A stretch of 64,000 nt of DNA from Carcharhinus longimanus (lineage: Eukaryota): positions 13,695,411 to 13,759,410 of the forward strand of contig JASCQW010000148.1 in assembly GCA_030264375.1 (NCBI GenBank), given 5' to 3'. A program made the position numbers. Shown here piece after piece: positions 3,001-9,000 of the stretch (position 1 is its first letter; each line of letters opens with the position of its first letter).

Positions 3001-6000
3001 TGCAAGACTGGGCAGAGAAGTGGCACATAGACTTCAACCCAGATAAATGTGTAGTGGTCCATTTTGGCAGGTCCTATGGGATGAAAGAGTATAATATCAA
3101 GAGTAAGACTCTTAGCAATGTAGAGAATCAGAAGGGCCTTGGGGTCCGGGTCCATAGGACTCTTAAATTGGCCTCGCAGGTGGAGGATGTGGTCAAGAAG
3201 GCATATGGTGTACNNNNNNNNNNNNNNNNNNNNNNNNNNNNNNNNNNNNNNNNNNNNNNNNNNNNNNNNNNNNNNNNNNNNNNNNNNNNNNNNNNNNNNN
3301 NNNNNNNNNNNNNNNNNNNNNNNNNNNNNNNNNNNNNNNNNNNNNNNNNNNNNNNNNNNNNNNNNNNNNNNNNNNNNNNNNNNNNNNNNNNNNNNNNNNN
3401 NNNNNNNNNNNNNNNNNNNNNNNNNNNNNNNNNNNNNNNNNNNNNNNNNNNNNNNNNNNNNNNNNNNNNNNNNNNNNNNNNNNNNNNNNNNNNNNNNNNN
3501 NNNNNNNNNNNNNNNNNNNNNNNNNNNNNNNNNNNNNNNNNNNNNNNNNNNNNNNNNNNNNNCAATTTTTTTCACACAGAACATGGTACAAGCTGCCAGA
3601 GGTAGTAGTAGAAGCAGGTACAATTTTGTCTTTTAAAAAACGTTTAGATAGTTACATGGGTAAGATGGATATAGAGGGATATGGGCACAACTGGGACTAG
3701 CTTAGTGGTTAAAAAAATGGACAAGTTTCCATGTTGTAAACCTCTATGACTCTAATTGTCGAATCACATCTAAGATTAGATGTTATTTGTCTTTAATGGG
3801 CTCCACTTGTTCCCTGGTCATCTTCTTGCCCTTAATGTATTGATAAAATGCCTTCAGCTCTCCCTTAATTTTATCTGCTAATGATATTTGATGCCCCCTC
3901 TTTGTCCTCTTGATTATTTTTTAAGCACCCCCACTGATAATGTCTAGACTCCTGAAAGGTCTCCTCCCCCCATTTTTAATGCTCTGTGCCTACCATATTT
4001 CCAATTTTTCTTCATCAATCCCTCGTTGTTCCTTGACATTTACTGTGCGCAGTTCTGGTAGCCTCAATACAAGAAGAATGTGAAAGCTATTGAAAGGGTG
4101 CAGAGGAGATTTACAAGGATGTTGCCTGGATTGGGTGGCATGCGTTATGAGGATAGGTTGAGGGAGCTCGGTCTTTTCTACCTGGAGAGACAAAGGATGA
4201 GAGGTGACCTGATAGAGGTTTATAAGATGTTGAGAGGTATAGATCGGGTTGATTCTCAGAGGCTATTTCCCAGGGCTGAAATGGTCGCTACAAAAGGACA
4301 CAGGTTTAAGGTGCTGGGGAGTAGGTACAGAGGAGATGTCAGGGGTAAGTTTTATACTCAGAGGGTGGTGGGTGAATGAAATTGGCTGCCGTTGGTGGTG
4401 GTGGAGGCAAACTCGTTGGGGCCTTTTAAGAGACTTCTGGATGAGTACATGGGATTTAATGGGATTGAGGGTTATAAGTAGGCAGGGATATGATCAGCGC
4501 AACGTTTGGGCTGAAGGGCATGTTTGTGCTGTAGTTTTTCGATGTTCTATGTTTTCTAATATAAATTAATATGAGGGATTGGAAGAGAATTTGGAACAAA
4601 TGGTCAGTATGTAAAAGTATATACAGATTAACATCCTAACCAAAATACTACTGTAGCAGCAATCATTTAAGACAACTCTTTGGTATAAGGAATATTTGTT
4701 TGGTTACTGTTACTTTCACGAAGTGCATGCAAATTAAAGAATGGGTGGCTCCTGTGAATTTAAACAGGAATTGGTGAGCCTGGCACCGAGTAGAGATTTG
4801 TGAAAACTTTGTTAAGCAATCTCTTGGTTGCAAACCAGGATTCCATTGCCAGTCTTTGCAAGGTAATGTTGAGGACTCTGAGTCCATACTCATTGGAGTT
4901 TAGAAGGATGAAGAGGGATCTTATTGAAACTTACAGGATATTGCGAGGCCTGGACAGAATGGATGTAGAAAGGATGTTTCCACTAGTAGGAAAAACTAGA
5001 ACCAGAGGGCACAACCTCAGGCTAAAGGGATGATCATTTAAAACAGAGATGAGGAGGAATTTCTTCAGCCAGAGAGTGGTGAATCTGTGGAACTCTTTGC
5101 CACAGAAGGCCGTGGAGGCCAGGTCATTGAATGTCTTCAAGACAGAGGTTGATAGATTCTTGATAAATAAAGGGATCAGGAGTTATGGGGAAAAGGCAGG
5201 AGAATGAGGATGAGAAAAAAAACAGCCATGATTGAACGGTGGAGCAGACTAGCGGGGCTGAGTGGCCTAATTCTGCTCTTATGTCTTATGGTCTAGGGGT
5301 AATAACAAAATGGGCGATATTGAGTCAACAATGTTATGGTAATATCATCACTTCCAAGTCCCCCTACACGCTATCCTGATTGAACATTTATTTATCCCTC
5401 CATTGTTGCTGGTCAAAATCCTGGAATGCCCTAAAATCTTTGTGGGATCACCAATACCATAGGGCCGAAGCTTTTCAAGGAGAAGATTTGCTCCACTTCT
5501 TAGGGTAACCAGGCCTTGCCAAGCATCTCAAAAGTAAAGTAAATCAAAGGACATAAATTAGCACAAATTATTTCCCTAAAAAAACTGAATGTTTCTGAAA
5601 ATTAAATCCAGTTGGGATAACTAGAATAAATATTGACTAAAACTGATTTTTCCCTGCATTTCAATGATAAAAAAGAAATGACTTCATGCCAGCTGAGTCC
5701 CTATTTCATTCTCATACTTTAAATAATTTGTGCATATTCTCCTCTATGCAAGTAAAACAAGTTGCAACGTTAGCATCATGACATGAGAAAGTGCAAATGA
5801 CTAATTCAGCAGAGCACCAGGATATCTTATCAAAATACTAGTCCCACTCAATTTAATTAAAATGTGATTGTTCCCAGTCAAACACTGGGAGCAAAACTGT
5901 GAATTTGTTTGGCTTTCAAATAGTGGCATAGTTAAGTCCAGAGTCAAAATTCCAAACTGCAGACGATCCAATCCAAATACCTACTGGTAGAAATTTTAAA

Positions 6001-9000
6001 CATGGTACTTCCAGGGCCAAATGAATCTGAACAAATATCAAAATCCTGCCAACATGGAGCATTTTATTATTACTATTCAATCAGAAACACAAGGAATCAG
6101 ATTCTTGATTTCATTGATCCTGCTTACAGGTTTGTCAGGTGTAGGTACCTTCACTTTCCAAATGAGAAAGATATTATAGTGCTGACTTAAAAAATCTTCT
6201 TAAAGTAAAAAAGTCCTCTGTTTCCCAACTGAAATGAAAATTTAGACTAATCAGCTTCATTTGCACTAACAAAATGAAAAAGCTTTTTACAGAATCCTAC
6301 AACACACACAATACATTATACAATCTTGTTATAATTGTTACAGCGGGATTATATTTCCATTTATCATTGAATTAACTTAAGCTGAAAATAACAATGAGAC
6401 CATGAATTTATCTTTTTCCTACTGCAGCTTTTACAAAGTCACTCAATACTAGAACCCAAGGATAGTTTTGGTTACAACCAATTCTAGCTGTTTTGCCCGT
6501 CTTAAATTGCTAGATTTTAAAACCCACCTTGCTCTGTCCGTGGTTGAATGAAGATTGGTATTGGTGAAACGAGTCTACGTTGGTACAAGTGACAAGTTCA
6601 TCCAGTGCATCCACATGTCTTTTAAGGTTGGTCAGATTGCCCTCTGTCTGCTGCTTTCGTTTACTAAGTGTTTCGGCTTGCTTTGACATGCACTGACGAA
6701 TCTGTGCCTAAACAAAAGAAAAGTGGCAATCCTTAACACATGAAAAAGTTAATATTTGCAAGGTCAGCTATGTCATTTGAGTTCTTTAGTTAAGTTACAA
6801 TTGTATTATTCACTATGCATTTTAAGTTTCTCCTCTTTAGATTAAGCTGCTCGCAGGTCTCTTTATTATTGTTTAAACTATTAAGAAGGGCATTTGTAGC
6901 TTAAACTAATTTGAGTTGAGACTTACTAACTTGTCCGTAAGGAGGGTATCTTTCTGGAACGTTCCTTCGATGGCCCGAGGAAGGATTGGAAGTCAATTAT
7001 TTGAAGAGGTCATGAACATGAATCTCACATGTTCTGTTTGTTATTCATTCTCAACAATTCACAATGCCAAACAGTTAATTTAGCATACTGCCAATGAAAA
7101 AAGATAGAAATAAAATGCTCCATGTTGGCAAGATTTTGATATTTGTTCAGATTCATTTGGCCCTGGAGGAACCATGCTTAAAATTTCTACTAGTAAGTAT
7201 CTGGATTGGATAATCTGCAGTTTGGAATCTTGACTCTGGATTTAACTATGCTGCCATTTGAAAGCCAAACAAATTCACAGTGTCGCTCCTAGAATTTGGC
7301 TGGAACAATCACTAATTTAAAATGAGTGGGGCTGGTATTTTGATAAGATATCCTGGTGCTCTGCTGAATTAGTTATTTGAACTTTACTCTCTCAAGCCAT
7401 GATGCTAATGTTGCAACTTGTTTTACTTGCTAAGAATATGCACCATAATTGCACAAATTATTTAAAGTATGAAATGGAAAAGAAGTTGAACTGGTATTAA
7501 GAGTCACAGCTTCTTTGGCATTAGAACGCCAATGTAGAAATACTCTATAATGGTCAATGAAATTGAAATAGAACAGGAATGATTTGTGTTTTAAAAGTTG
7601 CACAAGAAGTTCAGGGATACAAATAACTTGTTTCAGGCACTTAGGAAATTTACAGCTATCCTTATGAATTGAATTATCCGTTGTAACATATTCTACCTGT
7701 CTCATCACAACTGGTTCCTATGAAAATATTAATTATTTCTGATAATTTGTCTGTAATAATGCTGGAATGGCATTAACAATGAATCCAACAACTATTCTGA
7801 GTCTTTGCACACAAATTTGGCAGGACTGTCACTTTTGTATAAATGTAAAGGGGAATTTTCCAGCTGTTTATGCCAACAGGATTTTCTTGTCCTGCTACAG
7901 TGAACAGAGAACTGCTGAGTGCCACGTTCTCCATCCTTGCTTGCAGTGGCAGCAAAGTGGAAACAGCTGGAAAATTCCGGCCATAATTTCACATTAAACA
8001 CATTTTTCAACCTTGAGATGATCTTCCTGTTGTCTTAAATTTTCTCTCAGCACTTCTCCTCGCCACTGTTCATCCTGAATGGCAAAGGAACAATAGAATC
8101 ATTTTAATGTACATTTCAAGCATGATATTCTATAGGGCAAGTAAATAATCTGGCTCTACCTTCCCCTCAACATTATTTCACAATTGCCTAATAAGGGATT
8201 TTAACTTCAGCTATCAATGTCTTTTCTCCATCTTTTCGTTCCCTCTTTTATGCAGAAAACCCAGTGCCTTTCTCAGTAACCCATTACATGATCAAAGTAA
8301 ATATGAAGCAATATCCAGCATTCCATGGTACCAAATGGATCAATATTCTTTGACAACACATTCTCTGCAGCCTCCACTGTTCCCTCAGATACTCTCTCAA
8401 CTACTCCCCTTTTTCTCATTGCCAACATGATTCTTATCTTTATATTCCTGTATATAAGTATACATCTGATGCTTCTTAATGGATAATTTTCTGGTGTGTG
8501 CTCCCTGGCTTGCAGCAGGAGTATAGAAGCAGGAAGCTAGTGCAATATTAGTAAGTTGTCTGACAGTTTTTAATATTTTCCATATATAATTCAAGAACGT
8601 TCTCATAAAACACTCAAAAGTTCTAAGTTTAAAAAATTCCATAAACCTACAATTCAATTTAGATTGGGATTTATAACAGAAGTTGCAGCATCCATTCTCT
8701 GTAAAGTGCCTTTTTCATTTCTAACAGTCAAAAAAACCACAATCTGTTCACACATGCTCTTATTCCCAGGTATTGGTTATGAAATTTTAAATAAATGCCA
8801 GACTTGCCTGAAATGAAAGTTTTGACAGTTCAATTTCAAGCTTTTTTCAATAAAATATTTTAGAGAAAGCAAAGAAACTCGCAAAATCTCACCAGGTTAG
8901 AAGTTCATAAAATCTGTATGGTGGAGAAGCAGGCCATTTGGTCCATCGAGCCTGTCTACCTAACTTGCACATCTTTGGAGTGCGGGATGAAACTGAAGCA

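What the first reader, a model, noticed from the sequence alone, without database searches (positions are those of the whole stretch)
5680..7506. ~390-bp inverted repeat pair bracketing a single in-frame CNTRL exon
Seen: 5680-6068 and 7109-7506 are reverse complements (roughly 80-85% identical by eye) lying ~460 and ~400 nt either side of the 180-nt phase 0/0 exon 6528-6707. The arms do not resemble other repeats I recognised in the window. Known: flanking intronic reverse-complementary sequences promote back-splicing, exon skipping and ADAR editing. Inference: candidate single-exon circRNA, or in-frame skipping of the conserved CMSKQAE exon; origin may be a local inverted duplication rather than two transposon copies.
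Basis: partly seen in the sequence, partly recalled or inferred. Interest (0 to 1): 0.72.

Follow-up and report, generated by a model that had tools for sequence, protein, structure and literature searches.

The report
Intronic inverted repeat around shark CNTRL exon
Two roughly 415-base reverse-complementary stretches sit in the introns on either side of one 180-base exon of a shark centriolin gene, an arrangement known to favour circular RNA, exon skipping and RNA editing, though nothing here shows that any of these happens.

Summary
Window 5656-6068 and 7109-7529 are reverse complements: 354 matches, 54 mismatches and 18 gap columns, 86.8% identity, blastn E about 1e-123. They are the strongest inverted pair in the window.

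They bracket one phase-0/0, 180-nt exon (6707-6528, minus strand) of centriolin (CNTRL). The exon lies 401 and 459 nt from the arms. The window is shark, not human; the best exon match is Mustelus asterias centriolin at 93%.

In the transcript sense the arms cofold at -529 kcal/mol with 368 intermolecular pairs, against -186 +/- 5.6 for shuffles. In a 2-kb fold they enclose the exon in a 1040-nt loop.

This is a standard reverse-complementary-match architecture, competent in silico for back-splicing, in-frame skipping and A-to-I editing. No expression data were available. All 24 named cartilaginous-fish centriolin models keep the exon, and mismatches show no strand-specific preservation of pairing.

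Origin is unresolved. There are only two copies in 64 kb, with intron-like composition and no transposon hallmarks. However, the upstream arm carries a target-site-duplication-like direct repeat (8 of 3719 null positions score as high).

It is an ordinary kind of feature but a clean candidate.

The parts
7109..7529 (-). Inverted-repeat arm in the upstream intron of the minus-strand transcript. The core is 7109-7482, with a weaker extension to 7529.
   Evidence: It pairs with 5656-6068 in cofold and in the 2-kb MFE.
5656..6068 (-). Inverted-repeat arm in the downstream intron. The core is 5701-6068, with a weaker extension to 5656.
6528..6707 (-). 180-nt, phase-0/0 coding exon of centriolin (60 codons, contains CMSKQAE). 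It is the third-from-last coding exon by comparison with full-length shark models.
   Evidence: Translation. tblastn with Pristis and Narcine models. 64-93% identity to 24 named cartilaginous-fish centriolins, always placed between the same neighbouring exons. Splice sites read.
6708..8011 (-). Upstream intron (1304 nt) holding the arm 7109-7529.
   Evidence: Exon ends taken.
1766..6527 (-). Downstream intron (4762 nt) holding the arm 5656-6068. It contains an unread N run at 3214-3562.
8012..8074 (-). Upstream neighbouring exon (63 nt, 21 codons, phase 0/0).
   Evidence: 86-100% identity to the 24 models.
1651..1765 (-). Downstream neighbouring exon (115 nt, starts in phase 0).
   Evidence: Matches in 21 of 24 models.
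7090..7112 (+). Left copy of a direct repeat flanking the upstream arm: a 7-mer and an 8-mer separated by 8 extra A-rich bases.
   Evidence: score 10.25, reached by 8 of 3719 random positions of the same geometry. Also reported as D2.
7528..7542 (+). Right copy of the same direct repeat (15 bp, uninterrupted), starting at the outer end of the arm.

Best explanation
This is a pair of intronic reverse-complementary sequences (an RCM pair) of about 415 nt in the centriolin gene of a shark. One arm lies in each of the two introns that flank the third-from-last coding exon.

Shown here:
- The two arms exist and are the only copies in the window.
- As RNA in the sense of the gene, they can form a duplex of about 360 bp that closes a 1040-nt loop containing only the 180-nt exon and its splice sites.

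Inferred:
- The downstream arm is transcribed about 1 kb after the exon's 3' splice site. On some fraction of transcripts the duplex therefore forms before the upstream intron is removed.
- The most likely consequence is A-to-I hyper-editing of the stem by ADAR.
- A minor share of transcripts may yield a 180-nt single-exon circle (donor 6528 joined to acceptor 6707), or an in-frame mRNA lacking 60 residues (8012 joined to 1765).
- The normal linear mRNA remains the main product.
- I take the pair to be a neutral by-product of sequence insertion or duplication, not a selected switch.

Origin:
- The upstream arm looks like an inserted copy, because it is flanked by a direct repeat.
- It is undecided whether both arms are members of a low-copy dispersed repeat or whether one is a local templated copy of the other. 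I lean slightly to the dispersed repeat, on base rates only.
For: - Inverted repeat: (354 of 408 aligned bases identical, E 1e-123).
- It is the strongest of the 10 inverted pairs in the window (433 bits, next best 117) and the only one enclosing exactly one exon.
- The gene is on the minus strand, with 25 collinear tblastn segments to a sawfish centriolin model.
- Exon phase and splice sites.
- Cofold of the arms in transcript sense gives -529 kcal/mol, 368 intermolecular pairs and a longest uninterrupted helix of 59 bp. Thirty dinucleotide shuffles of one arm give -186 +/- 5.6.
- The MFE of the 2001-nt transcript stretch has 357 arm-to-arm pairs and a 1040-nt loop.
- No competing partner for either arm exists in the readable window.
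- Published rules: 30-40 nt of flanking inverted repeat can suffice for circularisation, and the inverted repeats around mouse Sry do the same for a single exon (PMC4201285, passages). [quoted passage not shown]
- Circles of 170-177 nt head the list of back-splice read counts in bamboo-shark liver (PMC7759564, Table 3 passage), so 180 nt is not out of range in sharks.
- Neutrality: G-U 17 against A-C 17.
- Insertion mark at the upstream arm.
Against: - No RNA evidence of any kind was available.
- All 24 named cartilaginous-fish centriolin models examined keep the exon between its neighbours. They were retrieved with a query that includes the exon, so this is weak evidence against skipping.
- PMC4201285 (passages) states that not every inverted pair supports circularisation, that strengthening the hairpin sometimes strongly inhibited it, that longer exons circularise better than shorter ones, and that a 51-nt artificial exon gave no circle. 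A 180-nt exon behind a very long stem may therefore be a poor substrate.
- The splice sites look strong, which favours ordinary linear splicing.
- Pairing in a cell may be prevented by fast co-transcriptional splicing or by helicases. This point is recalled and was not tested.
Confidence: 0.55

Rival explanations
1. Origin rival A. The arms are two independent insertions, in opposite orientation, of one dispersed non-autonomous repeat family of this shark genome. Their closeness is chance.
For: - Base rates (my own knowledge, not a call): most intronic inverted pairs in vertebrates are transposon copies.
- The upstream arm is flanked by a 15-bp direct repeat like a target-site duplication (8 of 3719 null positions).
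- Both arms share both ends, as copies of a discrete element would.
- The window carries other dispersed repeats, so the genome is repeat-rich.
Against: - No third copy, even diverged, in the other 62 kb, whereas the SINE-like families of the window occur 3-5 times.
- The downstream arm has no flanking duplication (score 5.0, reached by 2482 of 3719 null positions). The one-fixed-end searches were not significant either.
- No tRNA-like head and no Rfam family.
- No terminal inverted repeats and no A-rich or microsatellite tail.
- No open frame longer than 59 codons that lies wholly within an arm.
- GC is 36%, like the surrounding intron, against 48-49% for the SINE-like families.
- A translated arm frame found nothing convincing among 1.84 billion protein representatives: one hit, E 4e-4, 25-residue best stretch.
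Confidence: 0.5
2. Origin rival B. A local inverted duplication or templated insertion copied about 415 bp of one intron, inverted, into the other intron about 1 kb away. This resembles, on a small scale, the inverted duplication around mouse Sry.
For: - Two copies only, 1040 bp apart.
- Composition equals the local intron.
- No transposon hallmarks.
- There is an asymmetry: the downstream arm has no flanking duplication, as a native source sequence would not, while the upstream arm does, as an inserted copy would.
Against: - Such events are much rarer than transposon pairs (my own knowledge).
- The 15-bp flanking repeat is equally expected for a mobile element.
- Copy number outside the window is unknown.
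- The 349-N run in the downstream intron was not read.
Confidence: 0.4
3. Function rival. The pair is a selected regulatory device that produces a functional 180-nt circular RNA or a regulated 60-residue-shorter centriolin.
For: - The architecture is close to ideal: one exon, arms 400-460 nt from the splice sites, and no competing partner.
- The exon length is a multiple of three, with no stop in frame 1 around the circle and one in-frame ATG.
- Skipping keeps the frame.
Against: - G-U against A-C is 17:17, so there is no sign that pairing was preserved on the transcribed strand.
- 13% divergence has accumulated, plus 18 gap columns.
- 0 of 24 related gene models skip the exon.
- No paper found links CNTRL circles to sharks. 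One search found 11 papers, none about a CNTRL circle by title. One search found 48 papers, of which 12 were listed. 'CNTRL' and 'centriolin' are absent from the main text of the bamboo-shark study; its supplements are closed and were not seen.
Confidence: 0.08
4. Null rival. The duplex never matters: both introns are removed co-transcriptionally and the pair is inert intronic sequence.
For: - Strong-looking splice sites.
- The exon is constitutive in all 24 models.
- PMC4201285 notes that circularisation is restricted to specific exons although repeats are commonplace in introns (passage).
Against: - A 360-bp near-perfect duplex with helices up to 59 bp, separated by only 1 kb, is the kind of substrate that ADAR edits wherever it has been examined (my own knowledge).
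- The downstream arm is finished only about 1050 nt after the 3' splice site.
Confidence: 0.3
5. Assembly artefact. The inverted copy was created by a mis-join in a draft scaffold.
For: The window is a draft scaffold with fourteen N runs, many of exactly 100 N.
Against: - The pair lies in one gap-free stretch, 3563-12839.
- The arms differ at 54 positions and 18 gap columns, unlike chimeric-read palindromes.
- The enclosed exon, its splice sites and its order among 25 collinear exons are intact.
Confidence: 0.02

Closest known systems
Inverted Alu pairs flanking circularising exons of human ZKSCAN1, HIPK3 and EPHB4 (Liang and Wilusz 2014, PMC4201285; passages read)
   Same: - Complementary sequences of a few hundred nt sit in the two flanking introns, within a few hundred nt of the splice sites.
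- Pairing is predicted to bring the downstream donor next to the upstream acceptor.
   Different: - Here the arms are not a recognisable SINE and have no other copy in 64 kb.
- The enclosed exon is a single 180-nt exon, shorter than the circles studied there (360 nt and more).
- No circle has been observed.
Inverted repeats around the single exon of mouse Sry (Dubin et al. 1995, as cited in PMC4201285; the original was not read)
   Same: One exon is bracketed by an inverted repeat that is not a pair of transposon copies. This would hold here if the local-duplication origin is right.
   Different: - The Sry arms are over 15 kb; these are about 0.4 kb.
- Sry is a single-exon gene; here the exon lies inside a gene of at least 25 coding exons.
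- The origin here is unresolved.
The 13-nt RCM of C. elegans zip-2, which promotes both back-splicing and skipping (PMC8330042; abstract read)
   Same: A non-transposon complementary pair flanks the exon(s). The same pairing is proposed to give both a circle and a skipped linear mRNA.
   Different: The zip-2 RCM is 13 nt, conserved across five nematodes and proven by deletion. Here the pair is about 415 nt, its conservation is unknown, and there is no experiment.
ADAR-edited intronic dsRNA formed by inverted repeats (PMC8938519; only the start of the abstract seen in the listing)
   Same: A long, imperfect intramolecular duplex in a pre-mRNA.
   Different: Editing was not observable here. The presence of ADAR in sharks is assumed from general knowledge and was not tested.

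Membership tests
Exon-flanking reverse-complementary match (RCM) pair | Two sequences in inverted orientation, one in the intron upstream and one in the intron downstream of the exon(s). | tested here: met
   Arms at 7109-7529 (upstream intron 6708-8011) and 5656-6068 (downstream intron 1766-6527)..
Exon-flanking reverse-complementary match (RCM) pair | The arms can base-pair as RNA in the sense of the gene, over at least the 30-40 nt reported as sufficient (PMC4201285). | tested here: met
   368 intermolecular pairs, -529 kcal/mol against -186 +/- 5.6 for 30 shuffles. 357 arm-arm pairs in the 2-kb MFE.
Exon-flanking reverse-complementary match (RCM) pair | Pairing across the exon is not outcompeted by partners within the same intron. 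| tested here: met
   No other copy in either orientation in the readable window. The 349-N run at 3214-3562 in the downstream intron was left unread.
Exon-flanking reverse-complementary match (RCM) pair | Canonical splice sites on the enclosed exon. | tested here: met
   Pyrimidine tract plus AG before 6707, and AAG|GTGGGT after 6528.
Exonic circular RNA locus | A back-splice junction seen in RNA, resistant to RNase R. | not testable with these tools
   No RNA-seq or eukaryotic read collection is reachable. The bamboo-shark circRNA paper does not name CNTRL in its main text, and its supplements are closed.
Cassette (skipped) exon | Transcripts or gene models that join the neighbouring exons directly. 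| tested here: not met
   0 of 24 named cartilaginous-fish centriolin models lack the 60 residues. This is weak evidence, because the models are predictions and were retrieved with a query containing the exon.
Dispersed transposable element (SINE, MITE or LINE fragment) | Many copies dispersed in the genome. | tested here: inconclusive
   Two copies, adjacent, in 64 kb. The genome outside the window cannot be searched with these tools.
Dispersed transposable element (SINE, MITE or LINE fragment) | Each copy is flanked by its own target-site duplication. | tested here: inconclusive
   Upstream arm: yes, score 10.25, reached by 8 of 3719 null positions. Downstream arm: no, score 5.0, reached by 2482 of 3719. 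Searches with one end free gave 576 of 577 and 106 of 577 null values as high.
Dispersed transposable element (SINE, MITE or LINE fragment) | Structural hallmarks: a tRNA/7SL/5S-like head, terminal inverted repeats, an A-rich or microsatellite tail, or transposon coding sequence. | tested here: not met
   - No tRNA.
- No Rfam match at gathering threshold, and only sub-threshold noise at E up to 10.
- No terminal inverted repeat within an arm.
- Ends read show no tail.
- Open frames wholly within an arm are 59 codons or fewer.
- One frame searched against 1.84 billion proteins gave one marginal hit.
Local inverted duplication | Exactly two copies in the genome, close together, with the composition of the surrounding sequence. 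| tested here: inconclusive
   Met within the window. GC is 0.356 and 0.359 for the arms, against 0.350 for the spacer and 0.357 for the rest of the upstream intron. Genome-wide uniqueness is not testable.

The most novel reading that the evidence does not exclude
A lineage-specific local inverted duplication, not a transposon pair, turned the third-from-last coding exon of shark centriolin into a Sry-like single-exon circle. Because the exon is 180 nt, has no stop in frame 1 around the circle and has one in-frame ATG, such a circle would carry an endless reading frame. It could be translated by rolling circle into a repeating 60-residue centriolin tail peptide. Alternatively, the same hairpin could drive a regulated in-frame loss of these 60 residues.
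Probability: 0.05. Interest if true: 0.55.

Novelty: new member of a known kind. Interest (0 to 1): 0.25.

Why it matters
If the pair does act, it would be a clean natural test case. It has one exon, one pair of arms and no competing repeat, in a cartilaginous fish, where circular-RNA biogenesis has hardly been studied. It could show that pairing-driven back-splicing and skipping work the same way at the base of the jawed vertebrates.

If the arms prove to be a local duplication, it would add a small-scale parallel to Sry. As it stands, it is an ordinary structural feature of a repeat-rich intron, and its value is as a candidate for a simple RNA-seq or minigene check.

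Tried and rejected
- **Human origin: rejected.** The three exons match shark centriolins best, with Mustelus asterias at 100, 93 and 92%. The Rfam gathering-threshold scan found no match at all; I had expected Alu copies to show as SRP-like matches, which is my own expectation and was not validated. The window is a draft scaffold with 100-N gaps.
- **Transposon classification by structure: nothing found.** ARAGORN, Rfam at gathering and at E up to 10, terminal repeats within arms and open frames all gave nothing.
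- **Weak mir-2355 match.** The hit at 7043-7105 scores 21.7 bits against a gathering score of 80 and is taken as chance.
- **Diverged third copies: none.** nhmmer --max with a two-arm profile and with single arms gave only E>1 noise.
- **Translated arm frame (5804-5980, minus strand, 59 aa) against 1.84 billion representatives.** One hit at E 4.3e-4, 37% identity, 25-residue best stretch in an unnamed 760-aa protein. I did not fetch or use it. Only one of six frames, and 177 of about 415 nt, were tested this way.
- **Target-site duplication for the downstream arm, letting the element extend beyond the shared part.** The best match was 5646-5658 against 6413-6426, reached by 106 of 577 null queries. 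Not significant.
- **Flanking duplication around the whole 5656-7529 unit.** None found; score 5.0.
- **Strand-specific preservation of pairing.** None; 17 G-U against 17 A-C, binomial p = 1.
- **Pfam on the exon.** Only a sub-threshold HrpB7 match (18.3 bits against a cut-off of 29.7), taken as coiled-coil noise.
- **The repeat finder pair I2 (40261-40434 / 46467-46640, '97%').** This is inflated by N runs matching N runs. The real part is 72 nt.
- **Literature.** The search for 'CNTRL' plus 'circRNA' gave 11 papers, none about a CNTRL circle by title. In the one I opened (PMC7574500), CNTRL occurs once, in a primer table, and I did not establish why.
- **Not done.** The arms were therefore not searched in any genome outside the window.

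Full report
**What the window is**

The 60-residue translation of 6707-6528 finds centriolin-like proteins of an electric ray (72%) and a sawfish (65%).

The sawfish model aligns by tblastn to 25 collinear segments on the minus strand between 63410 and 1637. The window therefore holds most of a centriolin (CNTRL) gene.

I compared three exons, each on its own, with 24 named cartilaginous-fish centriolin models. The best match is Mustelus asterias, at 100%, 93% and 92% for the three exons. The next best in the 60-residue exon, at about 88%, are Carcharodon carcharias, Rhincodon typus and Scyliorhinus torazame.

I take the window for a shark, near the ground sharks, and not for human. Three observations support this:
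- The Rfam scan at gathering threshold gives no match at all. I had expected Alu copies to show as SRP-like matches; that expectation is my own and was not validated.
- There are fourteen N runs typical of a draft scaffold.
- The interspersed repeats are unlike primate ones.

The N runs were left unread. I handled the exons one by one; the joined (spliced) model was not built or searched.

**The observation**

The repeat finder gives four collinear inverted blocks. blastn gives 5701-6068 against 7482-7109, 86.0% over 379 columns, E 1.8e-123.

The optimal local alignment runs from 5656-6068 to 7529-7109. It has 354 matches, 54 mismatches (34 transitions, 20 transversions) and 18 gap columns. 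That is 86.8% identity, or 83.1% counting gaps. The outer 45 nt are less alike than the rest.

The arms lie 459 nt (6069-6527) and 401 nt (6708-7108) from the exon. The exon is open for 60 codons. It follows a pyrimidine tract and AG, and is followed by AAG|GTGGGT.

The neighbouring exons are 8074-8012 (63 nt) and 1765-1651 (115 nt). Removing the 180-nt exon would therefore keep the frame.

**How unusual it is within the window**

A whole-window inverted blastn lists 10 pairs. This one scores 433 bits and the next 117, and it is the only one that encloses exactly one exon.

Neither blastn at word size 7, nor nhmmer --max with a profile of the two arms, nor blastn of 3563-9400 finds a third copy.

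The SINE-like families of the window occur three to five times and have 48-49% GC. The arms have 36%, like the spacer (35%) and the rest of the upstream intron (36%).

**Can the arms pair as RNA?**

The gene is on the minus strand, so I folded the reverse complement.

| Measure | Result |
|---|---|
| Cofold of the two arms | -529 kcal/mol |
| Intermolecular pairs | 368 |
| Longest uninterrupted helices | 59, 39, 28 and 28 bp |
| Each arm folded alone | -74 and -92 kcal/mol |
| Thirty dinucleotide shuffles of one arm | -186 +/- 5.6 kcal/mol |
| Arm-to-arm pairs in the MFE of the 2001-nt stretch 7600-5600 | 357 |
| Enclosed loop (the exon plus 401 and 459 nt of intron) | 1040 nt |

**What this architecture is known to do**

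- Liang and Wilusz (PMC4201285, passages) showed that 30-40 nt of flanking inverted repeat suffice for circularisation.
- The same paper also reports that not every pair works, that stronger hairpins sometimes inhibit, and that longer exons circularise better. A 51-nt artificial exon gave no circle.
- That paper also cites the inverted repeats around mouse Sry.
- Cao (PMC8330042, abstract) showed in C. elegans that such matches promote both back-splicing and skipping of the enclosed exon.
- In bamboo-shark liver the circles with most junction reads are 170-177 nt (PMC7759564, Table 3 passage), so a 180-nt circle is not out of range. CNTRL is not named in that paper's main text, and its supplements are closed.
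- ADAR binding of such duplexes is stated in the abstract start of PMC8938519, seen in the listing only.

**Tests that bear on function**

- None of the 24 named cartilaginous-fish centriolin models lacks the exon. This is weak, since they are predictions retrieved with a query that contains the exon.
- Among transition differences, 17 give G-U and 17 give A-C in the transcript sense. Nothing suggests that pairing has been preserved on the transcribed strand.
- The exon carries no Pfam domain.
- The circle would have no stop in frame 1 and one in-frame ATG. This is a curiosity, not evidence.

**Origin**

The upstream arm is flanked by a direct repeat: a 7-mer plus an 8-mer at 7090-7112, interrupted by 8 A-rich bases, and the same 15 bases uninterrupted at 7528-7542. 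The score is 10.25, reached by 8 of 3719 random positions of the same geometry. I tested three geometries, so this is suggestive and not proof. It also depends on placing the outer end of the arm at 7529.

The downstream arm has no such repeat (2482 of 3719 null positions score as high), nor one when either end is left free.

There is no tRNA-like head, no Rfam family, no terminal inverted repeat or tail, and no open frame longer than 59 codons that lies wholly within an arm. One translated frame found only a marginal hit among 1.84 billion proteins.

These facts fit two readings:
- A low-copy mobile element inserted twice. Base rates favour this, which is my own knowledge.
- A templated local copy of one intron segment inserted, inverted, into the other intron. 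The asymmetry of the flanks and the intron-like composition favour this.

I cannot decide between them without the rest of the genome, which no tool here reaches. The Jukes-Cantor distance between the arms is 0.146, so the event is old on any plausible rate.

**Verdict**

This is a real, clean, exon-flanking inverted repeat of a well-known kind. It is competent on paper for editing, back-splicing and in-frame skipping, with no sign of selection and no expression evidence. Its interpretation is plausible but untested, and the origin question is open. Interest is modest.

Noticed in passing
window 38702-38769, 40363-40434 and 46467-46538: There is a second set of intronic inverted matches: 68-72 nt, 93-96% identical, 6.0 and 7.7 kb apart, enclosing three CNTRL exons. 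The 174-nt '97%' pair I2 is inflated by N runs matching N runs.
   Followed up: partly
window 13215-13464, 27520-27751, 43156-43284, 44119-44346, 62608-62900; inverted copy at 8958-9102: A SINE-like family of about 230-300 bp occurs four to five times, at 69-88% identity and 48-49% GC. It was not classified.
   Followed up: no
window 18087-18158 and 59237-59308: Two 72-nt copies (82% identical) look, from recall only, like the tRNA-derived head of a SINE. ARAGORN calls no tRNA there.
   Followed up: no
window 22692-23137: A purine-rich minisatellite-like array of about 74-nt units, with start-to-start spacings of 45, 97 and 185, lies in an intron.
   Followed up: no
window 6527-6450 (minus strand) and protein P0002: The 180-residue 'centriolin-like' model of Narcine bancroftii continues past the end of this exon into sequence that tblastn aligns to intron just downstream of this exon. 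In the window, the read-through stops after 5 codons. It is probably an intron-retaining partial model.
   Followed up: partly
window 21389-21568, 38556-38735, 50377-50726, 59328-59600: Four short hairpin-like inverted repeats (arms 73-87 nt, 83-95% complementary, spacers 26-192 nt) lie in introns and look like small foldback or MITE-like elements.
   Followed up: no
window 3214-3562: A 349-N run lies in the same downstream intron as the arm.
   Followed up: no
window 3584-3722 and 42706-42850: A 148-column direct match (78% identical) begins just after the N run at 3214-3562 and just after the N run at 42373-42382. It is another dispersed repeat.
   Followed up: no
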